From contig JADIIX010000028.1 of the NCBI GenBank assembly GCA_027604505.1, positions 62,001 through 126,000 of the forward strand: DNA of 64,000 nucleotides, given 5' to 3'. The notes beneath the pieces are model-generated. The model searched no databases. It worked only from the letters and a program-made list of their open reading frames with translations, and had not been told where the DNA came from. Source of the stretch: Gonapodya sp. JEL0774 (taxonomy: Eukaryota). The position numbers and the translations under genes are program-made. This document shows positions 2,195-44,816 of this stretch, piece after piece (position 1 is the first letter of the stretch; each line of letters begins with the position of its first letter).

Positions 2195-3346
2195 TCAATT
2201 GTCTGTTCCCAGCCTTAGACGAAGCTTAAGTAGGAACCGAATCTCAGGCGCACCGAATCTGTATTCTCGGAGCATAGCCTCGACGTCTGATCTGCGCACG
2301 CCTGCGCGCAGCAGAACAGCAACGACAAGTGGGCGATGGTACACAATGGCGAAACGGAGAGCTTCACAGTCGTCAGCGCGGACATCTGCGCCGTAGGCAA
2401 GGAGGGTGCGGACAAGTCTGACGTGACCGATGCGGGAGGCGGAGGCGAGAGGGCGATTGAAGAGGTGTTTTCCAGATGTCATCGCATCGCCGTATCCCTG
2501 AACGTCAGCCCCCCACTCCAAAAGAAACTTTGCCAGGTCAAGGGAGCCTGTACGGCACGCCTTGTTCAAGCCGAATCCGTTGTAAGCGTCCACATTTGCG
2601 CCTCGCGTCAGCAACAACTGCAGGACAGGGAGGGATATGGTTTCAATGTCGCCCACCATACCCAGGAACAGCGCGTGATCAGGTTGCTGGATATCTAGCG
2701 CTTTGTTTGTGTCCGATGCGTGAACATCAGCACCCGCTGCTAATAGTTGTTGTACCATCATCAGATCTCTACGACGGCAGGCCGAAAAAAGTGCACGATT
2801 TCGAGACTGGCTGTCCTGACCTCGTGCTAGAAGCAATCCGACGAGGTGGTGGTGTCCGCTCTCCGATGCGAGTTCCAGCAAGTTTCTCTGTCCCTGCTCA
2901 TCAACAAACACGACGCCACAGTCCAGGAGAAGGCCGAGGACAACGCTCTGTCCCCGAAAAACGAGATTCTGCAATATCACGGGAAACTGCAACCACGTGG
3001 GAGCACTCGCAATCTCGGATTCCAGACCGGGGCACCGACGAAGGAGAGCTTTGAGGACGTGAACCGATGGTTGAACTCTCCGACACTCATTGTGGAAGGC
3101 GAGAAGAGGGAAATGAAATTTGACGAGAGCACGGGACGCAATTGTGTCTGGATCGCGAAGGGCGGGGAGGAGAGCTCTACAAATGGAATAGGTAGGAAGT
3201 CCGAGCCGATGCTCCACAGAACAGAAGGAGCTCAAACGCGTCACCAATTTCGGTGGGAGCGAGAGGATCGGGAAGATCCCCGGAGCTGGAATGCGGCGTC
3301 TCCAGAATGTCCAGGGGAAGACGCGCATTCGCTCTCTGTTTTGCAC
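2195..3346 (-). CDS. Ankyrin-repeat protein, single exon, with a degenerate F-box-like N-terminal segment
   Basis: 383-aa ORF with about 6 ankyrin repeats (ASESGHHHLVGLLLARG, LLAAGADVHA, LLEWGADVQ, LLAYGADVRADDCEALRFA). N-terminal segment ILSLPPKLVTRLSSF. Confidence 0.85.
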   Translation of the reverse strand: MQNRERMRVFPWTFWRRRIPAPGIFPILSLPPKLVTRLSSFCSVEHRLGLPTYSICRALLPALRDPDTIASRALVKFHFPLLAFHNECRRVQPSVHVLKALLRRCPGLESEIASAPTWLQFPVILQNLVFRGQSVVLGLLLDCGVVFVDEQGQRNLLELASESGHHHLVGLLLARGQDSQSRNRALFSACRRRDLMMVQQLLAAGADVHASDTNKALDIQQPDHALFLGMVGDIETISLPVLQLLLTRGANVDAYNGFGLNKACRTGSLDLAKFLLEWGADVQGYGDAMTSGKHLFNRPLASASRIGHVRLVRTLLAYGADVRADDCEALRFAIVYHRPLVVAVLLRAGVRRSDVEAMLREYRFGAPEIRFLLKLRLRLGTDN

Positions 3347-3997
3347 TTGAGACGGTCGGCGACGTGTTTTGGGGATGAAGCACCAACACCGTCACTGCCA
3401 CGCCACTAAAGTCCCCCACCAACACTATTCCCTCGCTTTTCTACGACTTCCTCTCGAATTCTGGTTCTACTTTGCTATTGCGCCCACCGTCAGCATTGGC
3501 ACTGAATTTGTGGCTTTTCCTATGTGGGACGTGAAAAGAATGCAACCACTTGTTGGCATGCAAGTCTGTCCCGTTCGACCGGAACAGGCAATCGTAGAGG
3601 CAACACCTGAGTAATGAATCGAATTGAACGCACTCATTGAAGGTAGGGCGGTGCCAGTAGACTAGCTTTGGGTCCGTACCCCGGGAGCGAAGAGGCTTGA
3701 GATGACCGCATAGACAATAATGTGTGGGCGCACGTCTCAGTTGTATTATGTATCATGGAACTCTTCGCTTGCTCCGTATCCCATGTGTTTACGTTTTGAA
3801 TTGTTGGTGGAACTGTGATTGATCAATCGTGGCCGCCCCGCTCCTCCTTCCGCCAAACCCACAACATAAACTGCCTTCGCGAAGTTGCTGCATTCGCTGG
3901 CCCTCCCCTCATCGCAGGCTCTTCGGTCATCGTATCTGTAAAATTGGCAAACAATTTGCTCCACACGTAGTCTCCGTACTCGCCTCTTTCCATTGAA

Positions 3998-21971: not shown

Positions 21972-22533
21972 CGTGTGGGATGCAACGAGTGGTCTTCTGA
22001 TGTATTGTCGTATGAGTGGACACTCAAAACACATGACCTCCCCCAACATCTCCAAACTGACAACAGAATAATCGCTTGGATGCAAACCTACTCCATGTAT
22101 AAATGGAGTAGCAAAAGTAAATCCAACGTCTGTATTTATGCATGGAGTCACGGAGTTTTTGTGAGGAAGCAGGCAGAGCAAGTGTCCGGGTCCGGAACCA
22201 AGCAGCTCTCTGCAGAATGTCCACCCATTTCTTCTGCGAACTCACCTTCTAACTGTTCTCGAGAAACGTCAAAAACCATCGGTTCATCGTACTGCCTCCC
22301 TCTCTTATCGCCTTTCTCTTGGTGTCCGAGAAGCAGTCCTATCTGTCCCAGTACGCCACCATCGCTTCCCTCCCCTCCCCCGCAACCTGCACAGATCTGG
22401 GCCCGCATATATCTACTTATCTACTTCGTACTCTAAGGTGCGCAGAACGTTTTCAGAACGTGTTGTTTGTCTTGTTAACCTGTTTGTTCTGTGGAACAAT
22501 GTTGCTGATTCCGGAAATCTTGATTCGCAGTCC

Positions 22534-25500
22534 ATGTCCCGCTCCAGTCCTACATCGTCGGCAGCCAAACTGATTGAAGCTGTCGAGCGAGGAGATATTC
22601 TTGAGGTTGAGAATCTGCTCACCAATGGAGCGGACCCGAATGCTGTCAAGACGGTGACTCTCTTACTGTTGAACAAGACCGACACAGTAAACGGCGAGAG
22701 CGCGTTGGCACTCGCAATATTGCATGGACACGATCAGATTGTCGAAGTACTCCTGAAACACGGAGCGGACCCGATGCAAAAAATTAGCTGGATTATCAGT
22801 GAATATCCCGAACATGGCGAAAGCTGGACGATCCAGAAATGGGATAATCGTTGGAGATACAAGTTTTCTTGTACTGATGCACTGTCACTGGCGTGGGTAG
22901 GAACGTGCAGACGGGCAGAGTTTCACGAAAATGGCGACGAGTCAGTTGCAGTGGAAGTCAGCGAAAAGGTGTTGATCAACATGCCTGGAGGCGATGTTGT
23001 GCACATACTGGACAGCGTTTGGGGCCACACACCGAATGAACGCTCTGTTCTCTACAGAGAGCACAACCTGCACCTCCAACCCGCTGTTCTTATCGCACTT
23101 CGTAAATGCAGCAGCGCATACATTCGCGTGGTTTATACTCTGAATATTCCTGCTTTGAGTCCTCATGCTTTGCGAAACTACTTGGAGGCGATGTTTAAGT
23201 ATTTGGAAGACCTTCAGCGTGAACTACAAGTGGAGAGGGCTGAGCACAAGGAGTGTCAGCAGCTCCTTGAGAGAGCTCAAGTGGCAAATTTACAAAAGCG
23301 CAAAGAGCTCACTGGAACAACTGTGGCTCCGGAATTAGGTCATCCAATACTGTCCACTGAAATCAACCAGATTCGGGCGCGGGATCCAGGGACTGAAGTG
23401 GCGAGACAGCACGTCCTTGATTGCCGTCTCCAAAAGTTAGAAGCACAGGTGGACCATGTCAGATCCGCTTTGAGCTCCCCGATGACGCCTGAAGGCGACT
23501 TGCGGAGCCATTTAGTGATGGTTTTGATCAAGTTAGAAGAACTCCGATGTGATCTCAGTTCGGAGAGGAAGGAGCATGCAGAATGTCAACGGATGCTCCG
23601 AAGAGTGGAGGGGGACACTGCAGATTGGAGTGCGAGACACGATCGGATACCCGGAGACTCTGCGGGGGCAGCTCCTATGGTCACTTCAGGAGAAGCCGTC
23701 CAAAGAGATCAGGAAAGGGTGAATGTTATGGATAATGAGACGGTGGACAGTCACGCAGCCCCGAATATACCCGCAATCGTCAGCCAACTCAATGTTGTCC
23801 AACTCGAATCAAGGATGAATCCACGGCCGAATGGTTCATCCACCAGCGCACGAAATTCTCAGCAGACGAGGCCTTCTGCGGTAGCATCAGATTCTGGGGG
23901 GAGCAAGTTGGAAATGGAAATTTCCAGGTTGCAGCGCGGCCTTGAAGCGAAAACAAACTCGTGTATAGATCTCAAAGCGGAACTCGTGCAGTTCAAAGGC
24001 AAGTTACAACAACTTGAAATCGACAACGTACAGCTGCGAAAAGATCTCAAGCGAGCAAGGCGCGGTGCACGCTCGGTTGTTTTGAAAGCTAGAACTCATG
24101 CAGCTCGGCATCAGGAAGAACTCGATCATATACGATCGAAACTGAACGAGGGGATTGTTTCGTTTGAGCGTGCTCTTATGATCTCGGAAACAGAGGGATC
24201 GTCAAAAGAGCAAGGCAAACGGCGAATGGAGACAATTCGAAGTCTTGAAACAGATGCGGAGGTCCTCCAAGATCGACATGGTTCTGATTCTGCGGACCAG
24301 CACGCGAAACAAAACGAGCTTGACGAGAAAGTGCGTAGTCTGGAAGAGGAGAAAGCGAACCTTGAAATTGAGCTTAGGAAGATGAAATCTAAGGCAGATG
24401 AGGCGTCGAAGCGAGCCAACGCAGTGGAGACCAGTCGAAGTGAGCAAGAAATTGAACTTGGGACTTTGAGAATTGAGCTTTCGGCTGCGGAGACCAAGAT
24501 AAAATCACTCGAATATAGAATTGGTGAAATGACCACAGAAGCGAGAGACAGCGTGACGGCAAGGGCGGTCCTATACCAAAATTTAAGCACATGGGAGTCA
24601 AGAGCAAGACGAGCGGAAGAGGAGCAAGCGAGTTCGCAGATCACAAAAAAAGAACTAGATGCTCAGCTTACTACTATGAGAGGTACAAATGAGGAGGCGT
24701 CAAAGCGAGCCAAAGAAGCGGAAATGGTCCGCGATGAGCGAGAAGCGGAACTTGTGGATTTGAGAGAACAAGTCTCGGTTGCGAAGAGCACGATAACAAG
24801 GCTGGAGTCTGAGGTCGCTGTCATCAAGAAAAACTCTGCAACGAGGATCGAGGAGCTCGAGACTCGAGCACAAGAAGCGAAATCGCAGACAGCGGTGCTT
24901 CAACGCAAAATTGCGGAGCTCCAAATCGAAAGAGGCCGAATCTCCGCATCCAAAAATACAATGGAGTGCCAGCTTACAGCCTCTAACCGTCAGTTGGAGA
25001 CTGTTCGACTCGACTTAGAGGCGGCAAATGGACAGCGTGATACTGCTGTGCGCACCAAAGTAGACTTGGAAACGAAACTCGAGGCTAGCAAGCAGGAGTC
25101 GGAGCGTCTTAACGGGGTAATCCGAGCTCATGCACTCCAAGTCGAATGTTTACGATCTACAAATGCCTCCTTAGAAACGGAGTCGAGGAAAAAGATAGAG
25201 GCGCTCACTTCCCAAGTCGCCAAGCTGACCAGTACTAACGCAGAACTCCAATCACGTCTCAGAGGGAATCTTGAAGAGCGGTCTGCTGAGCTTTCTGCAG
25301 CGACCGAGAACTTGAAAAACATCACCTCACAACAGACCTCGACATTCGAACGCATGATCGATACTATTAGGCGTGAAGCAAGCGATGCCAGGCGCGGGGA
25401 GATGGACTCGAAACTCGATTTGATCACCGAGAAAGTTGAGGTCCTGCGTACAGAGTCTCGAGCATCTCTTGAAGACGTACGGCAACTCATGATTCGAGGC

Positions 25501-26036
25501 AAGCGAGCTCGAAGTCCTGAGGTGTCGGATGGCTATGGGGATTACATGTCACCAAGCGAAGGCTCTTCTAGAGGAAGGACGGTTGGAATGCATGAGGTGA
25601 GTCAAAGGATCTGAAATCGCATTCTCACTTTGAAAGTACGCACGTGATGGCGGAAAGACTCTCCTCATGTCCATTTTTGATAGCCTGATCTTCAACGTGG
25701 TTCGGATAGACGAGGTGCCAAACGTCCCAAACTCCTCAGTGGTCCGTCGCCGGTGAGGATGCTTGCGTGCTTCCAGATTTGTGCACCCCGCGGGTTACAT
25801 TAGTCACTGCTTTCTCATCACAGCCTATTGGTGAAGGAAACGACGATCCTGACATCTCTCAAAATAGTTATTCCGATATATCCACTCTCATGAAATGGCA
25901 CGAACAGATATCTCAAAGGGAGCGGGATCTCGCTCGGCGAGAGTGGAAGTTAGCAGAGGATGAGAAAAAATTGAAGGACATTGAAGCTTTTGCGATAACG
26001 CGAATTTTTTCTTCGAGCCAGCGTGGGAACAACTGA
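22534..26036 (+). CDS. N-terminal ankyrin repeats plus long coiled-coil protein
   Basis: Exon of >1000 codons encoding LIEAVERGDILEVENLLTNGADPN and GESALALAILHGHDQIVEVLLKHGADP, followed by about 550 aa of heptad coiled coil. Two short 3' exons end at 26036. Confidence 0.8.
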
Positions 26037-33489: not shown

Positions 33490-35616
33490 TCAAAAGATGT
33501 TTGCTCTGACGTTGTCGACAATGGCCTTCAATCCCGCCCAGTTCTCTTCTCCGGTTACCACGATCTGAGCTGGAGGAAGAACAAAACCCTGTCCAGATGA
33601 GGTCAGAAAGCAGCAATCAATCTAAAATCATGAACAAGAAAGCGCGTGAAGTACTTCATTTGCTCACCGTTGCTGTATCTGAAGAAGACGGGCGTAACTC
33701 GATAGTGTAAGAGAAGACACGACCCAGACCGTTCCGATCCTGTGTAACTTGAGCGTTTACAGCTTCGTCCCACGCGTAATCTACCGCTGTACCAGTGGCC
33801 GCGTACACTATGGGTGGGATTGATTGTACCAAGCATTACAGAGAGGGAAGTATTAGTTACGGATATTTGAATGTTCATAGTTTCTGACTCACGTTGTAAA
33901 GCGGCTTGACACGCATAATAAGTCATTGCGATATGTCAATTTGCAAACGAAAGAAATATACATAGTGAGTCAGCGATACTTACTCTGACTAACATAAGTT
34001 CGACCAGATTGGGCCCGTATCGCAGCAGCCGCGGCATCACCAGCTGCCCGCAACCTCGTAGCTTGTGCGGTAGGAACCGAGTAGCTATATCCCGGCGGCC
34101 TCAGAATGAGCTGGGAGTACGAATGGTAGTCGATGGAAAGGATGGCCCGTTGGAGAGAGTTCAAAAAGTTTGATGTGATGACCTTGGTCTCAGGTTCGGA
34201 GAGGGGGGACGGGCCTTGGTATGTTTCCGCACTTGGATTGGTAGAAGCACCTGCGGGATCCTGGAATAAAGTATAATACATGATGATTTGGTGAGAACGC
34301 ATTTGGGATGGATCTGACTCCAACAATCACTTACCACACCCCAGCCTTTTGGATAATTCCTAACAATTGCAAAAAAACATTGAGCCGAGCGGTAAATGGA
34401 TCACAGTAAACATATCAATTGAACGCTAGTTTGTCGTTCACCGGTTCAGATCAACTCCAACAGCTGTGGATGTGGTCGTTGCACGCCGGCGATTCTTCCT
34501 CCATAGCCTATTGGTTGTCCACGTGTACTCGTAACCATCGGGGTTGACAACAGGGACGATCAAGAATTCAGTCGCCCGGAGTGTGCGGACCGCCCAAGCG
34601 TTGTCGGGGCTGGAAGCGTTCGAGTACGAAGAGGCCAGCTTGTACGCCAAATACTGAACAGTCGACCCTGCCACCCATTCGCGAGCGTGGATGAGACCTT
34701 GAATGTAGATTTGTTTCGCTGTTGCGTTTCCGGTGCCGATTCGAACCATGAAGAGGTTGCGCCCCTCGAAGGACGACCCGATGGAAGCATTCACAGAGAC
34801 AATTGTGGGGTACTGCGCTGCCATGGAGTTGAAGAATGCGCGAATGTCGTTGAAACGATCTACATGTATATATTAGGTGTGAACTTGCAGTGCCGCCGAT
34901 TGATTGATAAGATTCAAACATGTACTCACGGTAGGCAGTGAACCACGTTGCAGGCGAATAGACTCCGGTTTGTCTCTTCATCAAAGCCTGCATTCGGGTA
35001 AAAGGTGTGTGCTCGGTGAGCTCAGACCCAAACGGCTTTCATTCGCTGTCCGAAAGTAGAACAACGCACGGCAGAAGATTCGATCTCTTTGGTCTCCTCA
35101 TCGATGGCCGCCTGGATGTTATCGTTGACAATCTCCACTGTTGCAGCGGAGCTGGCTTCCAGTGCTGCGTCAGTGATAGCTTGCAGATCATCCGGGGTAG
35201 GGGCGAGAACATCGATCTGCGAGGGGAAAAGGGAGCACACGTCTTAATCGTACGCACAGCAGTCAATCCACCGGTCAAAGTGATATACGCACCGCGCGTC
35301 CCCCATCGTCCAAGTCCAAAACACCCCACACATCGAGCGAAAACAGGTTCCGAAATTTTGCCACGAGTTCCGAGCGGATAGCATCACTGTCCCCTAGTTC
35401 CGTGGATGGTACAGTAACACGGACAAGCATTTGGTTGTCATAACGAACGGTCGGGGCTTTGTGGTAAATGCAAATGTAATGTGGTTTCCGTGCTGATCGC
35501 AATGATGATCAGCTCTAATCACGATTGTAAAACTGACCACGAATCGGGGCCGCCACTGCAAATGCGCAAAACGCAAAGCTAGCGATAATCCCGCTCAGAA
35601 ACCGTGAGGTCTTCAT
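33490..35616 (-). CDS. Secreted zinc carboxypeptidase, M14A family, with propeptide
   Basis: Signal peptide MKTSRFLSGIIASFAFCAFAVA. Motifs IHAREW, NPDGYEY, WRKNRR, GVDLNR, IDYHSYSQ, YTIELRP, GFVLPPAQI. Stop at 33490-33492. Confidence 0.92.
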
Positions 35617-36562
35617 GCTTTTCGCTCAGCCGTCGTCAGAGCGAACAGGAAATATGCTGCGATCGGGGGAGATGGCATCACTTTTATAGCGAGGTAATGG
35701 AAGGAAAAAGGATCACGCCTGAAATATCGTGACATTTCGCTGCGACGCAAAACGCGAGGTGGGGTGAGTGAATTAGTGGTAATTCGAGGGATTGGGGAAA
35801 CTGATCTCAAATTTTTCTTTATAGGATCCGTCCCCCACCTAAGGTTCACTCATACGAAAGGTTTCAGAAGCATACGAAAACACTATTACACGTATAGCCG
35901 AATAACTTTTCACGGCAATTGTACTGCTATTTGTGCGCTCAGACGTTATGTCACAATAATGAAAGCCATTGTAGATAGGCTTCGCTCGTTCCTCACGGGG
36001 GAGCAAAACAAACTATTGTCCATAGAAACTCGATATAACATCAGTTCCATCACTTGTTGTTGCGTGAGGTTCGGTCCCTGATTTATTTCTGAGCGTCCGG
36101 CGGGAGACGTGAGACGCGAAACCCACTGAGCGGCTGTACTTCAACCATGACAATTGAAAGACTATGCTCAACTATTTGAGAAAAATCCGATGTGGTGTCA
36201 GATTCCATTGGGTATTGTGACCTCCGAACCGATGATTCATTATCCCATGCAAGTTAAAGGAAAAAGTGATAGACTATGATAAAATGGAAAACTTAGGCGG
36301 AAATTAGCTCTATCAGCATTTTGTAGAACGGGATTTTGTGTCACGCGAGATGGTACCTTTGATCTATCATCGGAATTGTGTGGATTGAGCACGAACTACA
36401 CAGACGAGACAGAGTGACAAGTCCATCGATAAAAAAAACCCTGGAATAGTCATTTTAAAATGAAGGAGTTTGTGTTTCTTGGGGCATGAAGAGTGAGACA
36501 AGCACGGGTCACGACCATTCTAGCTTATAGTGCACATGTTACGAGTTACAGCTCAAACAAGA

Positions 36563-36658
36563 GATCAGCAATCACTACTTGGGCTCAAAAACATCAGCTT
36601 TCGTGATTTCCGTAGATTCCGGATTGTTTCTCGAAGGCGTCATCATCCATTGTTGATC
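36563..36658 (-). promoter_or_regulatory. Type II eukaryotic SECIS element in the 3' UTR of the SelenoU gene
   Basis: Minus strand reads ATGAC-GCCTTCGAGA-AACAA-TCCG-GAATCTA-CGGA-AA-TCACGAAAGC-TGAT. This gives the AUGA/GA quartet (36643-36639 and 36596-36593), a 10-bp helix II with 2 mismatches, unpaired AA and an apical mini-stem. Flanking GATCAACAAT/ATTGCTGATC can form a lower helix. Confidence 0.85.
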
Positions 36659-36711
36659 ACTTGGTGCTTTGTTTTGATCCGAAGCTGCTCCATTGTTCAT
36701 CAAGATTCCAT

Positions 36712-37540
36712 TTATGTCGCGACAGAGTCCCTTCTCTCAGCTTTCGCTTTTTCTTGTTCCGTCATTTCATCCCAAAACCGGAACGCGCCAGCTTCCTTCC
36801 AGTCTGCGATGCCTGCCGCCTCCAACAGGGTGGGCACTGTCGCGTGATCCGCATTAAATCTGTCGAAGTGGACAAAAGAACACTCCCGCAAGCCCGGTCC
36901 CAGCACAAACGCACCGCCTTGCTGGCGCGGGTCACCTTGGGTTCCGCCGCCCGCTACACCCATGGCGAAACCCTTGATCCACGCGGCCGGAACAGTGGTG
37001 CGCACGTGGGGACTGGCGACGCGATATTCCAGTTTGGAGTCGAAGCGGAAATTCATGTTGAGTGCGGTGTAGAGGGAGCGTGTAGGGTTGGAATACATTG
37101 GTAAGGAGAGGCGGGTTTCTTTGATGAAGCGTCGCACAGCCCATGCTGGTGCAGGGGTAATGAGAACGATTCGGACCTTGCGTTCAGCGAGGACTAACTT
37201 GTCGACACGATTGAGGTCGACGAAGTAGTCTCTGTTTTCGAAGTATTGCCCGTCGCGATTCAGTTCAGCGAAACCACGACGGTGATGAGCCACAACCGGC
37301 ACTGGCGATGTCGATACGATACATAGACGGGATGCAAGCTACTTACCGGCAAATGTATCACAGCAGATTTCTTCCAAACACCACGATCGTCCGTGTCCCA
37401 TCATCACGGACGTAAAGTTGGTGAAAAGCAACGGAGGTGTCGGTGTCTGCGGTGGTATCGACGACGGAGAGATTCGCGACGTTTTCAAATGGAAAAAGCG
37501 ACGGATCCGAGAACTGTTTTTCGTTGTGTTGATGCGACAT
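36712..37540 (-). CDS. SELENOU: Selenoprotein U / PRXL2C (AAED1, AhpC-TSA_2) homologue with Sec at codon 61; exons 37540-37347 and 37231-36712, 237 aa
   Basis: Spliced frame RTIVVFGRNLL-[TGA 37360-37358]-YICR|DYFVDL aligns with PRXL2C VVVFVRHFLCYICKEYVEDL. C-terminal GDPRQQGGAFVLGPG...H. SECIS lies about 70 nt after the TAA. Confidence 0.9.
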
Positions 37541-37662: not shown

Positions 37663-39215
37663 ATGAACTTGTCCGACTTGCCAGATGAGCTGCTCTCGTA
37701 TCTTTGCAGGTAGTTAGGCACGTCGGTGATTCTTCTTGAAGTCACTAACTAGCTTACGACTCCGTAAATCGTTCAGTGCTGCGGTCCCTGTCGATTCACT
37801 TCGACCTCTATCTTGCACTTCCCGCCGGTTTCGAGACCTCCTTTCGAATCCTGAATCAGCTTTGTGGTCAGCTGTATGCAGGCGACTTGGTCGATCGGTG
37901 TGGAAAACTCCTTCGATGAACTGGCGAGGCATTGCTTTATCACGCATGGATCAAACATGTCCCCACCTTCCTCGCGTCCTCGATGATGAATCCGTGCAAT
38001 TTATGAAACAAACAATTCAAACTCTATACTCTGACCCTCAACTCGCGATGGATTCCTGGGCATGTATGGAGGGGGGCTGCAGTTGGAAGTACCCTGACCT
38101 GTGGGTCTGTTTAGATTGTGGGAGTGTCGGATGCGGAAGAAACAAAGCCAAACATGCCCTCAAGCATGCGAGAGATCATAGACATCCACTAGCTATGAAG
38201 CTGTCGAGCTGGGAGGTAGGAGGTTCACACTTTGTGTAGGACTTTCTCGACATTCCAAGAATACTGACATGATCCCTCCCGCCCGCTGTCCAGCTGTGGT
38301 GTTACGCTTGTGACCCTCGATCTACGGAAGGGAAAGATAGGTTCTTCGAAGTGTCGCCTGAAACCCCTCTCCGCTCCATGACAAAGGGAAAGGTGAACTG
38401 CTGACGAATCTGTGTTTCAGCAAGAGAAGCTAACACCACACCATTACCTCACTTTGTCTACAGTGGCTTGCATATCCATGTGGTGATCTCGTCGAACGTT
38501 TTGCCGTTGAATGGCTCATCAAAAGATTCTCGGACGTTGTAGCGGCATCAGTTGTAAGTGTTCGGATCGCACCTGCTCCCCTGTGTCACCCTGTTCACAT
38601 ACTACATTCGAAGCCCCCCATAAATATCAATCCCCGCCGTTCCATCGAGCGCCCCCTCTCGGAGCTCAAGCGAAATCAGGAGCTTTGGCTCGTTAGCCCA
38701 CAGTGGTATGAACGATGGACGAGGTTCGTCGTCGGAGATACGTCAGAACCTCCTGGTGGTATCAGATTGGACGGGCTCTATGTCAGGAGCGATGGGGGTG
38801 GAGGGTGGATATTGGACCCCAACGCTACCGAATGGGATGTGTGAGTGGTTCATCCAGCGTACCGTGCGATTCCCTCCATATCTCATACTTGTGCTGGCTC
38901 TGCTGACCTGCTGGCCACATAAGCTGGTTCTTGCCTGCCTCTTCAATGCCTTACATCCTCGAGCACTATCCACCGGCAGATCCCGAACGTCCACCCATCC
39001 CCGAGCGCGACATCCCCACAACCCCGACTTTTGCATGGCTCCGGTCTATGATTTTTAGTGTGAGGAGGCAACTTAGCTTACAGGATAACGACGCGGTGGG
39101 GGCAGATCTCGGGCAGCAGGCGGGCCAACAAGAGCCGAATGATGATGATGAAGAGGACGAAGATGAAGATGAAGACGCAGAAGATTCAGGGAGCGAATCA
39201 GATCTCAGTGATTGA
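37663..39215 (+). CDS. F-box + ZnF-UBP + DUSP-like domain protein with acidic tail, multi-exon
   Basis: F-box: MNLSDLPDELLSYLC|...LSCTSRRFRDLL...LW. ZnF-UBP: CPHL...LWVCLDCGSVGCGRNKAKHALKHARDHRHPL...LWCYAC. DUSP-like: LWLVSPQWYERWTRFVVGDTSEPPGGI. Confidence 0.78.
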
Positions 39216-39448
39216 TTCACGGGCGAGAATTCCACATGTTTGGAACTGTTTGGTGTTAGGAGGGTGTTGGATGTGGTATTCACGGAGTGGTCATCCCATT
39301 AATATCGGATAATTGACGCGTCTTGATGCAAGTTTGCATTATTATTGTGAACCGACCTTTCTCGACCGTGGTGAATAAAGTTCGGCTTGACCGGTTCCGA
39401 AAGCCCAGTCTCCCAGCACACCAGATTCCGGTAACGACAGAAGCTACC

Positions 39449-42400
39449 ATGAAGGTTCACTTCGTCGGAAAACGTCCGCCTACTGAGTCAGGCGCGCCCA
39501 ATCCTCCAACGGCCGCTTCGTCTGCGCGGTACCGGATGTCTGTCTTCGCGTCGCATTTGTCTCCGGTATCGGCATCAAAAGAGGACGCGAGAGCCGCACA
39601 AACGGAAGCTGAGGACAAAAGGCCAGGCATTCTTATTGCAAATCGAGGGGAGATTGCGATCAGGTGAGTTGCAGAGGACGCTGGATGCTGGGAGGTGATA
39701 ATTCTGGGTGTGGAAATCGGAGTGAAAGCACTGTCATTCATGATTGACCTTACACATTCCCAGAATCGCGGACGCCGCTTCCTCGCTAGGTTTTCGCACA
39801 ATTTCGATCTTCTCCAAAGACGACGATCGTTCCCTCCACACCAAAAAGACGGACGTCTCCGTTGCCCTACCGGCCTCCGGACCTGCCGCATACCTCGATG
39901 TAGACTCGCTCATTCGCGTTGCCAAAGAGTCCAACGCGGTTGCAATCCACCCGGGGTACGGATTTGTCGCCGAAAGTGAGGACTTTGCGCGTCGGTGCGC
40001 AGAAAGTGGGTTGGTGTTTGTGGGTCCCGCACCTGAAGTGCTCGAGGTGTTTGGAGACAAAGCAAAGGCGCGTACCGTTGCTCAGAAGAGGTGAGCTGTG
40101 TACCATACTCTGCGCTAGGTGCTAATCATTTAGTTGACCTGACCGTCCACCGTTCAGTAAAACCCCAACTGTCCCAGGGACACTCCGCGCAACTTCGCTT
40201 GCGGAAGCGGAAAGCTTTGCGAGAACAATATTTGTGTCTCCAGAATTCAAGTCGGGAGTGTTTGGTGGAGTGATAGTGAAGGCATTGTTCGGTGGAGGGG
40301 TGAGTGGCGCAGGGTACCCGGTAACCCATGGTCTAAACACACTTCGGTTTGCGCGTAATTATGTAATCACTACTCTGATATCGTTATAGGGACGTGGTAT
40401 GAGGGTTGTTTCGTCACTGGACCAACTTCCCGACGCTTTTGCGAGGTGCAAGGGCGAAGCCAAGTCAGCTTTCGGACGTGACGAAGTCTAGTGAGTTTCG
40501 TGTTTCCATCCATTTGAGAAAAGCTGAATTTTACATTGTATGATTGACAGCGTTGAAGCACTACTGGCGAAAGCCCGACAGTGAGTCGTTGGTGTTCGTT
40601 TTTTGGTGAAGAATAAGATGTATTTTATACCGCTCCCTCATTATAGCATCGAAGTTCAAATCGTCTCGCCGCGCAACCCCACTCCAGAAAATCCTCCATT
40701 GTATCTTCATACGCGTGATTGTACGCTCCAACGGCGCCACCAGAAAGTGGTGGAGATCGCCCCAGCCCCCAAGCTCCACCCAGAGATCACTCGAAAGCTT
40801 GGAGAAGCGAGCGTGCGGATGGCACTGGAAGTGGGATATTCGGGACTCGGCACGTGGGAGTTCCTCGTCGTTGGTGGAGAAAAGGCGGACGCAGCATGGT
40901 TTTTCATCGAAGCGAATCCGAGAGTGCAAGTCGGTGGGTTTTGGAGAGCAAATCATCTCATAGGCGTATTGCAACACAACCTTAAACCTTGGTCTAGAGC
41001 ACACTGTCACTGAGGAGATCCTTGGGGTTGACCTCGTTGCTGCGCAAATTGAGATTGCCCTCCACAATAAAAGATTGGCAGATACTGTACTTGGGTTCGG
41101 ATTGCAGCAACACGTACCACAACCACAAGGATGGGCCGTGCAGCTCAGGGTGAACGTGAGTTCCAAGCCCCAATCTTTTGAATTAATTTTCATTTAATCA
41201 TAGTGTGGCTACATTGGTGTCCATAGATGGAAAAGGTTGAAGAGATTCAAGGTTCTCAAACTTGGGTGTCGACTTCAGGAGGTAGGATGTCTTAGCCCTG
41301 CATCACGGTAATCTCGCGTCTTTCATACATCAGGGCCTGCATGCAGGGGTCGTGTCCGCATTCGAACCCCCATCTGGACGTGGAATTCGCGTTGACCACT
41401 GCGGCTACCCAGGATATCAAACGAATGCGAACTTCGACCCTCTACTCGCAAAAGTCATCGTGTCCTCCCCTCGTGGCACCCTCTTTGACGTCTTCCGCCG
41501 ATGTGGCCGTGCCCTTGATGAGTTCAAGATCACTGGTGTTGAAACCACAATCTCGTTTTTGCAGGCAGTGCTTGTGGAGACCGACGTTGTGCAGATGGGT
41601 GATTCCAAGTCGGGCAAAGTGGAGGTCTACACTCGATGGATTGACGATCGGCTGAACACTCTCTCTGCAAAAGCTGGTTGGGGAGAAAGTTCTGCAACAT
41701 CTTCAGGAAGCAGTCGCAAAGCTCTCTTCTTCGCTGCAGATCAAGCTGTCTCTTCACTTGCACCCACAGCCCAGGCGGTGCATATTCAAGGACCACCGGG
41801 GACGGTCCCCGTTGTCGCTCCGATGCAATCCACCATTGTCTCTGTTGATGTAAAGGTCGGGGACTACGTCAAGAAGGGCCAACAAGTAGCCGTTCTGAAC
41901 GCGATGAAGATGGAGCACGTGGCGTTTGCTGATAGTGCCGGTATTGTGAGGTGCGAACTCAAACTTTGTGCGTCAAAGCTTTCGGGGCCTTTCTCAAATG
42001 ACATCATTCTGTGCAATTGCTGTATTGACAATATAGGCTCATTGTTGGTGAACCAAACGTTACCCTTCCAAAGTCCGCACCAATTCTTTTCATAGAACCG
42101 GCCAGCACCAGCACAACGGATGAAACTTCAATTTCGGATGCTTCCACCGTGGATGTAGATCGTATTCGACCGGATCTAGCGGAAGCTATGCGACGTCATT
42201 TCTTGACTTCCGACGAGAGTAGACCAGAGGCAGTAGCCCGGCGGAGAAAATTGAACAAGAGGACAGCTCGCGAAAATGTTGGGGACTTGTGCGATGAAGG
42301 CACATTTTTCGAGTGGGGAGGCTTGGTTATAGCCGCGCAAAAAGCTCGGAGATCCATGGACGAACTAATAAAGCAGACGCCTGCGGACGGCATGATCGTG

Positions 42401-44816
42401 TGAGTACTGCTGATGTGTCGCGAACAATGCGCAGCTCACTTGTCAATTGCTGACTAGGGGAATCGGGCATGTGAATGGAAATTTATTCGATGAGTTGCGC
42501 TCGAGAGTTATGGTGTTCGCGTACGACTACACCGTGCTTGCTGGCACACAAGGAGTATTCAACCACAAGAGTAAGACAGTATAAGCCTGAATGCCTGATT
42601 ATTTAGAATATTCGTAATTCCGTGGTTGATCCTTTAGAGAAAGACCGCATGTTCCAACTGGCCTTTGAACATCGCTTACCCGTCGTATTTTACTGCGAAG
42701 GAGGTGGTGGGCGACCTGGCGACACAGAGGGCTTATCGAACAGTGGTGGACTTGATATTATGACGTTCAGACATGTAAGTGACTGCTGTTTCTGCCATAT
42801 ATCCCCGATCAAACTGATCTTGCTTTATAATTGCAGTTCGGGAAACTCTCAGGCCTCGTCCCCATGATTGGGATCACCACTGGATACTGCTTCGCCGGAA
42901 ATGCTGCATTGCTGGGCACTGTAAGTGTCCATTTTCGAATTGCCTATTCGAGAATTTTGCAAAACACAACCTTCCACAAACGTCAAATTCATCAGTGTGA
43001 CGTAATAATTGCGACGGAAGACTCGAACATCGGATTGGGAGGCCCCGCAATGATCGAAGGTGGTGGTCTGGGGGTTTTCAAACCAAAAGAAGTTGGCCCA
43101 GTTCAGGTTCAAAATTATAATGGGTGAGCAAAGTGTTCACAGTTATCATTGTGTAGTCACTTCGAGTAAACTGGAGTATTTTTCTTTTCGTGTTCTTTTC
43201 ATTTCGTACATTCCTTCCTTTGAAAGTGTCATCGGTGAGTTGTCAATGCAGTTATGCTTGAGCGAATACCCTTAATAAAACCGCTTGCGATTCTTTCAGA
43301 TGTCCTTGTTAAGGATGAGGTGGAAGCCACACGGGTCGCAAAGAAGTACTTGAGGTAGTTATTGTCCACGTTTATGCGCTGATCGGAGGGAATCTGTCCA
43401 TTTACGCAGTTTTCCTTCCTGTGTAGCTATTTCCAAGGCCCTATTCGAGAATGGCGATGCGCAGACCAGCGATTGCTCCGAGCCTCTATTCCCGAGAATC
43501 GTCTTCGGTCCTACGATGTTCGCCAAGTAATGCAACTGTTGTTCGACCAAGACAGCATTCTGGAGTTGAGAGCCCAGTGGGCGATTGGCATTATCACAGC
43601 TTTTGCTCGTGTGGAAGGTCGCGCAGTCGGTGTTATCGCTAACAATTGCACGCACCTGGGTGGGGCAATTGATGCGGAGGCTGGTGAGTTTTACCTTTCC
43701 TATTTGCTTTCGAATGTAGAAGATTGTGACTACAACTACGGGGTTATGCTCATGCAGGCGACAAGGCCGCTCGCTTCATGCAATTGTGCGACGCTTATGA
43801 CATCCCTATCGTCTCTCTCTGCGACACCCCAGGTTTTATGGTGGGGCCCGATCACGGTACGTGCCCAACAGATACTGCTCAATCTCTTACGAACGGTTCT
43901 TACGTTCCACTCCCTCAGAAAAAACTGCTATTGTTCGCCACGTTGCTCGGATGTTCGTGGTAGCCGGCTCTCTCACAATACCATTTTTCACAATTGTTCT
44001 GAGGAAAGGCTATGGTCTCGGAGCACAGGCTAGTGAGTATGTCTATCAGAGAGTAGCGAATACACAACACTTCGTCTTTGGTCAAAGCTATTGAATACCT
44101 CATCTCCCTTATTAGTGTGTGGTGGGAGCTTCCACGGTCCCATGTTCACCGTCTCTTGGCAAGTTTTGTGCGAGGTCTGTTGACCCATTACAGGTGAACT
44201 AACAAGAACACTTCCTTATTTCATCACGCTATACAGGCCGACAGGGTGAGTTGATTACCGTTCCCCTCCGCATGTAATATCACTTTTATCTAACGTAAAC
44301 TGTATCTGCTACACCTTTCGTTACTTAGAGAGTTCGGGTACGTCGGTCATTTCATTGCGTGAAGCCACCTAACTGACAAGATATCTCTGCCGGGTCAGTG
44401 GGATGGGTCTTGAAGGCGCTGTACGACTCGCATACCGAAATGAGCTCGCGGCTATCAAAGATCCGAAAGAACGCCTGGCGGCGGAGAACGCGGTGTGTTG
44501 CCGGTGTTACAAGGGACGGGTTTGGGGGCGTCCTTGTTGAATGTATTTCGACTCCATTACAGGCAATTGCGCAGTTGTACGAATCCGGCAAGGCGCTGAA
44601 AGCTGCAGAGTCACTTGATATCGACAATGTGATTGACCCAGCAGCGTCAAGGCGGTGGATCATGGCAGGTCTAAAAGCCAGCGTGGGCGGCAAAGTGAGG
44701 AAGCAGCCGTGTATCCACTTCGCGAATACCCAATTTGTTTGTTAAATTGAAATTTTTTTGTCTAGGGGTATGTTCCTGGTCAGTCAAAACGGAGACCGTG
44801 TGTTGATACATGGTAG
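39449..44816 (+). CDS. Single-chain biotin-dependent acyl-CoA carboxylase (BC-BCCP-CT; long-chain acyl-CoA carboxylase type), many introns
   Basis: BC: ILIANRGEIAIR, AIHPGYGF, RDCTLQRRHQK, FIEANPRVQ. Biotinyl lysine: NAMKMEH. CT: RTARENVGDLCD, DYTVLAGTQG, EGGGGRPGD, DTPGFMVG, WPTGEFGGMGLEG. Ends RRPCVDTW at TAG 44814-44816. Confidence 0.92.

What the first reader, a model, noticed from the sequence alone, without database searches (positions are those of the whole stretch)
36712..37540. Fungal selenoprotein: in-frame UGA at the first position of a UxxC redox motif (SelenoU/PRXL2C)
Seen: the ORF track stops a 60-aa ORF at TGA 37360-37358, but the frame continues TAC ATT TGC CG into a GTAAGT donor. 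After a 115-nt intron it resumes as RDYFVDL and runs to TAA, giving 237 aa. Known: human PRXL2C/AAED1 has FLCYICKEYVEDL here, so the TGA sits exactly on the first Cys. SelU-family proteins carry UxxC in several lineages. Most fungi lack Sec, but it has been reported in some early-branching fungi, including Gonapodya. Inference: this TGA is decoded as selenocysteine, and standard gene finders would truncate or mis-splice the gene.
Basis: partly seen in the sequence, partly recalled or inferred. Interest (0 to 1): 0.85.

Follow-up and report, generated by a model that had tools for sequence, protein, structure and literature searches.

The report
Hidden selenoprotein gene in aquatic fungus
A two-exon gene of an early-branching water fungus has a UGA "stop" codon exactly where its relatives carry the catalytic cysteine, so it likely encodes a selenium-containing redox enzyme of a family already reported in a sister species, and the public database model of this gene leaves that codon out.

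Summary
Observation confirmed. Exon 1 (37540-37347, minus strand) reads through TGA 37360-37358 into a GTAAGT donor; a 115-nt intron joins exon 2 (37231-36712), giving 237 aa. The TGA aligns with the first Cys of PRXL2C/AAED1. All 4 related metagenome loci (3 independent, intronless, 29-71% GC) have TGA at the same codon. A SECIS-like element lies 69 nt after the stop; alone it is only modest evidence (116 of 1000 shuffles match). Exon 2 is identical to a protein named Gonapodya sp. JEL0774, whose public model splices round the TGA. The Sec reading is very likely (about 0.9), but Sec machinery and transcripts could not be checked here. It is not a surprise: this family ('AhpC' of Mariotti, SelU2/PRXL2C of others) was already reported as a selenoprotein in Gonapodya prolifera. 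What is added: another species, a mis-annotated record, probable hidden orthologues in Hyaloraphidium and Synchytrium microbalum, and an unnamed sister clade with UxC instead of UxxC.

The parts
37347..37540 (-). Exon 1: ATG, 64 codons plus 2 nt; ends with the strand VVFGRNLL and the motif U-Y-I-C
   Evidence: N-terminus matches the Hyaloraphidium orthologue P0005; in-frame TAA two codons upstream
37358..37360 (-). In-frame TGA, codon 61, likely selenocysteine; first position of UxxC
   Evidence: aligned to first Cys of PRXL2C; TGA in 4 of 4 related loci
37349..37351 (-). TGC, Cys64, second position of UxxC (predicted resolving cysteine)
   Evidence: role inferred from the thioredoxin-fold CxxC mechanism
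37232..37346 (-). 115-nt intron, GTAAGT...AAACAG, splitting the Arg65 codon
   Evidence: best of 28 splice forms; orthologue models P0005 and P0007 also join at the matching DY position; not confirmed by RNA
36712..37231 (-). Exon 2: rest of the peroxiredoxin-like (AhpC-TSA_2, PF13911) domain, to TAA
   Evidence: E 1.1e-12, 48.7 bits, cut-off 27; identical to P0003
36593..36643 (-). Candidate type-2 SECIS: AUGAC core, 10-bp helix II with 2 mismatches, apical AA, 4-bp mini-helix, UGAU core; lower helix weak
   Evidence: fits the SECISearch1 Loose pattern only; no Rfam match
37356..37361 (-). Weak alternative donor (GTGATA) overlapping the TGA; its use would delete U-Y-I-C-R and give a 232-aa protein without a redox motif
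   Evidence: the same five residues are missing from the Hyaloraphidium model P0005

Best explanation
The gene has two exons and an in-frame UGA at the first position of the redox motif of a PRXL2C/AAED1-type thioredoxin-fold protein; the UGA is likely read as selenocysteine with the help of a predicted SECIS hairpin 69 nt after the stop, giving a 237-residue enzyme predicted to work through a Sec61-Cys64 pair. Shown: gene anatomy, family, position of the UGA, its conservation in relatives. Inferred: the 115-nt intron is the one removed in vivo; SBP2/eEFSec/tRNA-Sec recode the UGA as in G. prolifera; the selenolate attacks a peroxide or disulfide, Cys64 resolves it to a selenenylsulfide, and a thioredoxin or glutathione system re-reduces it. 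The substrate is not known; a peroxide- or disulfide-reducing antioxidant role is the most likely.
For: TGA sits on the first Cys of fish and other animal PRXL2C; the Trichoplax Sec member printed in the PMC3753652 supplement has the same UYIC motif. 4 of 4 related loci (3 independent; L001 and L004 are near-identical) are intronless and have TGA there, at 29, 65 and 71% GC, so the codon is neither an assembly error nor spliced out in them. Of 76 database hits, 5 end exactly at RNLL, 2 skip the motif, 68 lack the strand, and only 1 (fish PRXL2C) has an intact Cys motif. The Sec splice form scores 281 bits against 269 and 254 for the main rivals. In the AF2 model of relative P0027 (pLDDT 87.8) the residue lies between strand 53-58 and the start of helix 65-77, and the best PDB fold match is human PRXL2B. 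One SECIS-like element in the 500 nt after the stop; relative L002 has a strong one 28 nt after its stop (z -4.22, 0 of 200 shuffles). G. prolifera has the eukaryotic Sec machinery and Sec-AhpC genes, and its protein KXS13176.1 groups with this one.
Against: No direct evidence of Sec incorporation. tRNA-Sec, SecS, PSTK, eEFSec, SBP2 and SPS of this genome could not be searched (no genome held). The SECIS candidate fails the Strict and Default patterns, has no Rfam match, the Loose pattern hits 24 sites in the window's 128 kb and 116 of 1000 shuffles, and the whole hairpin is no more stable than shuffles (z 0.17 and 0.25). The L002 hairpin matches none of the four published patterns or Rfam either. 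The DNA of the fungal orthologues was not seen, so TGA in them is inferred from broken annotations. Many of the 68 short hits are fragments from small contigs and say little singly. The public model (P0003) splices differently.
Confidence: 0.9

Rival explanations
1. The UGA is spliced out: a donor overlapping it (37361) joins the same acceptor and gives a 232-aa protein without U-Y-I-C-R, either as the main product or as a selenium-independent, redox-dead side form.
For: The form is open and scores second best, 269 bits; the Hyaloraphidium model P0005 lacks exactly these five residues.
Against: GTGATA fits the U1 donor consensus (established knowledge) far worse than GTAAGT 15 nt away; it removes the catalytic motif; the intronless relatives keep the TGA and cannot splice it out; gene finders that treat TGA as stop are forced to such a model.
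Confidence: 0.04
2. The public model is right: a 46-nt intron (37384-37339) removes the UGA and the 115-nt stretch is mostly coding, giving a 260-aa protein with no redox motif.
For: It is the NCBI record KAJ3341446.1; the frame 37338-36712 is open; AF2 still folds it (pLDDT 81.3) by using another segment as the strand.
Against: Weak donor GTGGTG; deletes the conserved FGRNLL strand and motif and inserts 37 residues found in no relative; 27 bits worse than the Sec form; residues 60-80 have pLDDT under 50.
Confidence: 0.02
3. The gene is a relic of a selenoprotein in a lineage that has lost Sec decoding, so the UGA now stops translation (60-aa product or decay).
For: Sec was lost many times in fungi; the machinery of this genome is untested; the SECIS is only a modest match.
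Against: Exon 2 is intact and 66-72% identical to fungal orthologues with a short tree branch (0.22); splice sites and a SECIS-like element remain; the sister species has the machinery.
Confidence: 0.03
4. Assembly error, or UGA read as Cys/Trp by a changed genetic code.
For: No reads could be laid on the locus.
Against: Same TGA in 3 independent relatives; it is the only internal TGA in 237 codons and falls on the catalytic site; L002 uses TGA both here and as its stop.
Confidence: 0.01

Closest known systems
Sec-containing 'AhpC' genes of Gonapodya prolifera (Mariotti et al., bioRxiv 10.1101/314781; whole text read, figures and supplements not seen)
   Same: Same genus by the database name, same family (their AhpC profile is built on C9orf21/AAED1); SECIS distance of 69 nt is inside their 40-420 nt range; G. 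prolifera KXS13176.1 is 66% identical and its model also starts at the intron boundary.
   Different: Another species, not among the five Sec-using species named in that text; its SECIS candidate has apical adenines, which the two G. prolifera AhpC SECIS elements were said to lack. I could not check that KXS13176.1 is one of their AhpC genes.
Eukaryotic AhpC / SelU2 selenoproteins of Monosiga, Salpingoeca and Trichoplax (PMC3753652 passages and supplement parts; PMC3473315 passages)
   Same: UxxC after the same strand; Trichoplax has the identical UYIC motif; shared SPH, QGD-QQGG and H-D..DH motifs.
   Different: FGRNLL rather than FVRHFL before the Sec, and an N-terminal FPFE segment and DSK/DTR insert shared only with the fungal and environmental clades.
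Vertebrate PRXL2C (AAED1, C9orf21, SELENOU2)
   Same: 37% identity over 143 aa of exon 2 to pike PRXL2C, E 8e-26 pairwise; Pfam PF13911.
   Different: Vertebrate members have CxxC; all vertebrate Sec members of the SELENOU family are in the SELENOU1 branch (PMC13134290 passage).
PRXL2B (prostamide/prostaglandin F synthase, SELENOU3), PDB 9us9/9usa
   Same: Best solved relative by profile (E 5.8e-08) and by fold (E 1e-07): thioredoxin-like fold with C44/C47.
   Different: About 20% identity; a paralogue, so its prostaglandin substrate cannot be transferred.

Membership tests
Eukaryotic selenoprotein gene | In-frame UGA aligned to a catalytic Cys of homologues | tested here: met
Eukaryotic selenoprotein gene | UGA conserved in homologues, with coding conservation on both sides | tested here: met
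   4 of 4 loci, 3 independent; fungal orthologues only indirectly
Eukaryotic selenoprotein gene | SECIS element in the 3' UTR | tested here: inconclusive
   Loose pattern met at 36643-36593, Strict/Default and Rfam not; 116 of 1000 shuffles match; SECISearch3 itself not available
Eukaryotic selenoprotein gene | Sec machinery (tRNA-Sec, SPS, PSTK, SecS, eEFSec, SBP2) in the same genome | not testable with these tools
   no genome held; present in G. prolifera by literature
Eukaryotic selenoprotein gene | UGA kept in the spliced mRNA and selenium in the protein | not testable with these tools
   no sequencing run was listed; needs RNA-seq and 75Se or MS
PRXL2C/AAED1 (SelU2; 'AhpC' of Selenoprofiles) | AhpC-TSA_2 domain (PF13911) above cut-off | tested here: met
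   48.7 bits, cut-off 27
PRXL2C/AAED1 (SelU2; 'AhpC' of Selenoprofiles) | Closest named homologues are PRXL2C/C9orf21 | tested here: met
   the only named animal hits are PRXL2C/C9orf21-like (P0082, P0098, P0099); PRXL2B far weaker
PRXL2C/AAED1 (SelU2; 'AhpC' of Selenoprofiles) | Groups with PRXL2C to the exclusion of PRXL2A and PRXL2B in a tree | not tested
   no PRXL2A or PRXL2B sequences were held; the tree has only one named PRXL2C on a long branch
PRXL2C/AAED1 (SelU2; 'AhpC' of Selenoprofiles) | Thioredoxin-like fold with C/UxxC at the start of the helix after the first core strand | tested here: met
   model of relative P0027, not of the spliced window protein
SelenoU in the strict sense (SELENOU1/PRXL2A) | Closest to C10orf58/PRXL2A | tested here: not met
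   no PRXL2A-named hit in three searches (word-seeded, limited sensitivity)
Bacterial SelL-related redox protein (NF040769) | Score above the family cut-off of 120 bits | tested here: not met
   24-43 bits

The most novel reading that the evidence does not exclude
The gene marks an uncatalogued, Sec-only subfamily of PRXL2C (signature FGRNLL-U) that runs from Monoblepharidomycetes to the chytrid Synchytrium microbalum and a large clade of unnamed environmental eukaryotes in which the motif has become UxC; every fungal database record found is mis-annotated, so it would be a marker for further selenocysteine-using fungi and a natural test of UxxC against UxC chemistry.
Probability: 0.45. Interest if true: 0.5.

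Novelty: new member of a known kind. Interest (0 to 1): 0.3.

Why it matters
Fungal selenoproteins are rare and, in the papers I could read, rest on genome prediction. This adds a clean case in a second Gonapodya species, shows that its public record lacks the active site, and offers a short gene with a nearby canonical-looking SECIS, useful for defining fungal SECIS elements, which Mariotti et al. left open. It does not change the known picture that early-branching fungi use Sec.

Tried and rejected
No whole genome is held, so Sec machinery could not be searched; ARAGORN found 0 tRNA genes in the window, which says nothing about the genome. No sequencing run was listed: no RNA holder listed. 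An attempt to reach an archaeal SepSecS as a query for fungal machinery genes led nowhere (0 of 3 genomes). No relative in viral contigs (0 of 110 stretches) or prokaryotic genome contigs (0 of 417). The search of protein representatives never ran and the protein atlas gave no result, so 'Sec-only subfamily' rests on word-seeded searches. Rfam gave no SECIS match for the window or the loci; its fluoride-riboswitch hit at 36627-36700 is 11.8 bits against a cut-off of 34 and is taken as chance. My stricter SECIS filter (4 sites in 128 kb, 17 of 2000 shuffles) and the pattern (1 match, 0.57 expected) were written after seeing the element and are not fair tests. Donor hexamer counts in the window were uninformative. 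A single-sequence PDB search with P0027 found nothing. The Nature Microbiology 2019 version of the fungal paper is not held and the supplement of PMC9457484 could not be read; both may already list this species or gene. Earlier scan notes held nothing on this gene.

Full report
Observation. On the minus strand an ATG at 37540, with an in-frame TAA two codons before it, opens 60 codons to TGA 37360-37358. The frame goes on with TAC ATT TGC CG into a CCG|GTAAGT donor at 37346. Of 8 AG acceptors between 45 and 228 nt downstream, only 37232 (115-nt intron) gives a long frame, 237 aa to TAA 36714-36712. The gene lies among intron-bearing eukaryotic genes (Sec15, U-box, M14 carboxypeptidase, zf-UBP, biotin carboxylase, kinesin; Pfam matches for 14 of 45 ORFs scanned).

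Family and source. Exon 2 matches Pfam AhpC-TSA_2 above cut-off and is 100% identical to P0003, named by NCBI 'Thioredoxin-like protein aaed1 [Gonapodya sp. JEL0774]', KAJ3341446.1; I take the window to come from that organism or a near-identical one. Close relatives are from Hyaloraphidium curvatum (72%), Gonapodya prolifera (66%) and, further off, Synchytrium microbalum. The named animal hits are all PRXL2C/C9orf21-like. Pairwise alignment puts the TGA on the first Cys of their CxxC. Jiang et al. call the same branch SelU2 (PMC3473315, passages), and a 2026 paper equates SELENOU2 with PRXL2C (PMC13134290, passages).

Is the TGA real and conserved? A scan of metagenome contigs gave 4 loci from 372 pattern matches. 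All 4 are intronless at this site and read GRNLL-TGA-[FW]CIRD; L001 and L004 are near-identical, so 3 are independent, at 29, 71 and 65% GC. In the protein database, of 76 hits to the family profile 5 end exactly at RNLL, 2 skip the motif, 68 lack the strand (many are fragments from short contigs) and 1, pike PRXL2C, has an intact Cys motif. A search centred on the fungal sequences gave 49 hits and added three animal-type PRXL2C proteins (two with CxxC) but no intact fungal member. The Hyaloraphidium model jumps from GRNLL to DYF, the G. prolifera model starts three residues before DY, and the Synchytrium model skips the strand and motif: the pattern expected if each has a TGA there, but their DNA was not seen. 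In a tree of 29 rows the window protein falls in a 7-row group with these fungi (93/86, not starred), sister to a 20-row unnamed environmental clade (100/99); the two outer rows are on long branches.

Splicing rivals. The public model uses a 46-nt intron 37384-37339 with a GTGGTG donor and reads most of the true intron as protein. A second option is a GTGATA donor at 37361 that overlaps the TGA and deletes U-Y-I-C-R, the same five residues missing from the Hyaloraphidium model. Against a profile built from 20 relatives, none from the window, 28 single-intron forms were scored with X at the TGA: the Sec form got 281 bits, the overlapping donor 269, the public model 254. AF2 still folds the public model (pLDDT 81.3) by borrowing another strand, but leaves residues 60-80 below 50, a modest mark against it. 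The read-through relative P0027 folds at pLDDT 87.8 with the Sec position between strand 53-58 and helix 65-77; its best PDB match is human PRXL2B, followed by TlpA and PrxQ-type proteins.

SECIS. At 36643-36593, 69 nt after the stop, lies AUGAC, a 10-pair helix with two mismatches, apical AA, a 4-pair mini-helix and UGAU. It is the only match to the published SECISearch1 Loose pattern in the 500 nt after the stop, but that pattern hits 24 sites in the window's 128 kb and 116 of 1000 shuffles; Strict and Default patterns are not met (my own re-implementation, without SECISearch's energy filters). Rfam gives no SECIS match, the upper hairpin alone has z -1.63 and the whole element about 0.2. 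Relative L002 has a much stronger hairpin with the same core 28 nt after its stop (z -4.22, 0 of 200 shuffles), though it fits none of the four patterns or Rfam. The window's SECIS is therefore plausible, supportive and unproven.

Mechanism. Shown: anatomy, family, UGA position and conservation. Inferred from the established eukaryotic pathway: the SECIS binds SBP2, which lets eEFSec deliver Sec-tRNA-Sec at codon 61. Inferred from thioredoxin-fold CxxC chemistry: the selenolate reduces a peroxide or disulfide, Cys64 resolves it, and a cellular reductant recycles it. The substrate is unknown. Not testable here: Sec machinery in this genome, transcripts, selenium in the protein.

What is known. 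Mariotti et al. (bioRxiv 10.1101/314781, whole text read; figures and supplements not seen) report eukaryotic Sec machinery in five early-branching fungi including G. prolifera, whose selenoproteins include AhpC, with two AhpC SECIS elements lacking apical adenines; they list SelenoU separately and as missing from G. prolifera. The final paper counts nine species (passage in PMC11378755; the paper itself is not held). Amses et al. (PMC9457484, passages and section 7) find Sec in 11 early-diverging fungal genomes across most phyla; which ones is in a figure and supplement I could not see. Passages of PMC7539508 and bioRxiv 10.1101/2021.02.26.433065 added only background. Seven literature searches listed no paper that describes this gene in this isolate; the library lacks most subscription papers, so that is weak.

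Verdict. A real and very probably Sec-encoding gene (0.9), a new member of a family already known as a selenoprotein in the same genus. Interest 0.3. The more novel lead is the wider FGRNLL-U clade: all fungal records found are broken at the site, and the environmental branch has UxC (3 independent loci, and 7 fragments that begin with Met-Cys in the same register), a spacing I did not find among four motif strings searched in the AhpC supplement (a narrow check).

Noticed in passing
L001 ~566-580, L002 ~835-849, L003 ~676-690, L004 ~278-292: The environmental sister clade has U-[FW]-C-I-R-D (UxC) where the window has U-Y-I-C-R-D (UxxC), in the same register; 7 database fragments start with Met-Cys at the matching place.
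   Followed up: partly
P0069 (TPX32630.1, Synchytrium microbalum): Its model skips the core strand and redox motif like the Gonapodya and Hyaloraphidium models, hinting at a hidden Sec gene in a true chytrid; DNA not seen.
   Followed up: partly
L001 1194-1321 and L004 904-1031: A SECIS-type core with a perfect 6-pair helix encloses about 119 nt, far longer than usual; possibly an extended SECIS or one interrupted by an intron.
   Followed up: partly
L002 1401-1505: Strong SECIS-like hairpin (11-pair lower helix) 28 nt after the stop that no published pattern or Rfam model detects.
   Followed up: partly
L004 ~578: One-base frameshift relative to the near-identical L001; assembly slip or broken allele.
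   Followed up: no
window 33600-35620 (-): Multi-exon M14 zinc carboxypeptidase gene with a hydrophobic N-terminus, directly downstream on the same strand.
   Followed up: no
window 37730-38239 (+): zf-UBP ORF transcribed divergently, starting within a few hundred bases of the selenoprotein start.
   Followed up: no
window ~39400-44030 (+): Intron-bearing fused biotin carboxylase / biotin carrier / carboxyltransferase gene; its N-terminal exon is up to 59% identical to prokaryotic proteins, perhaps a bacterial-type carboxylase; no tree made.
   Followed up: no
window 2198-3391 (-) and 22165-25611 (+): Two long intron-free ankyrin-repeat ORFs, the second 1149 aa and mostly without Pfam match.
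   Followed up: no
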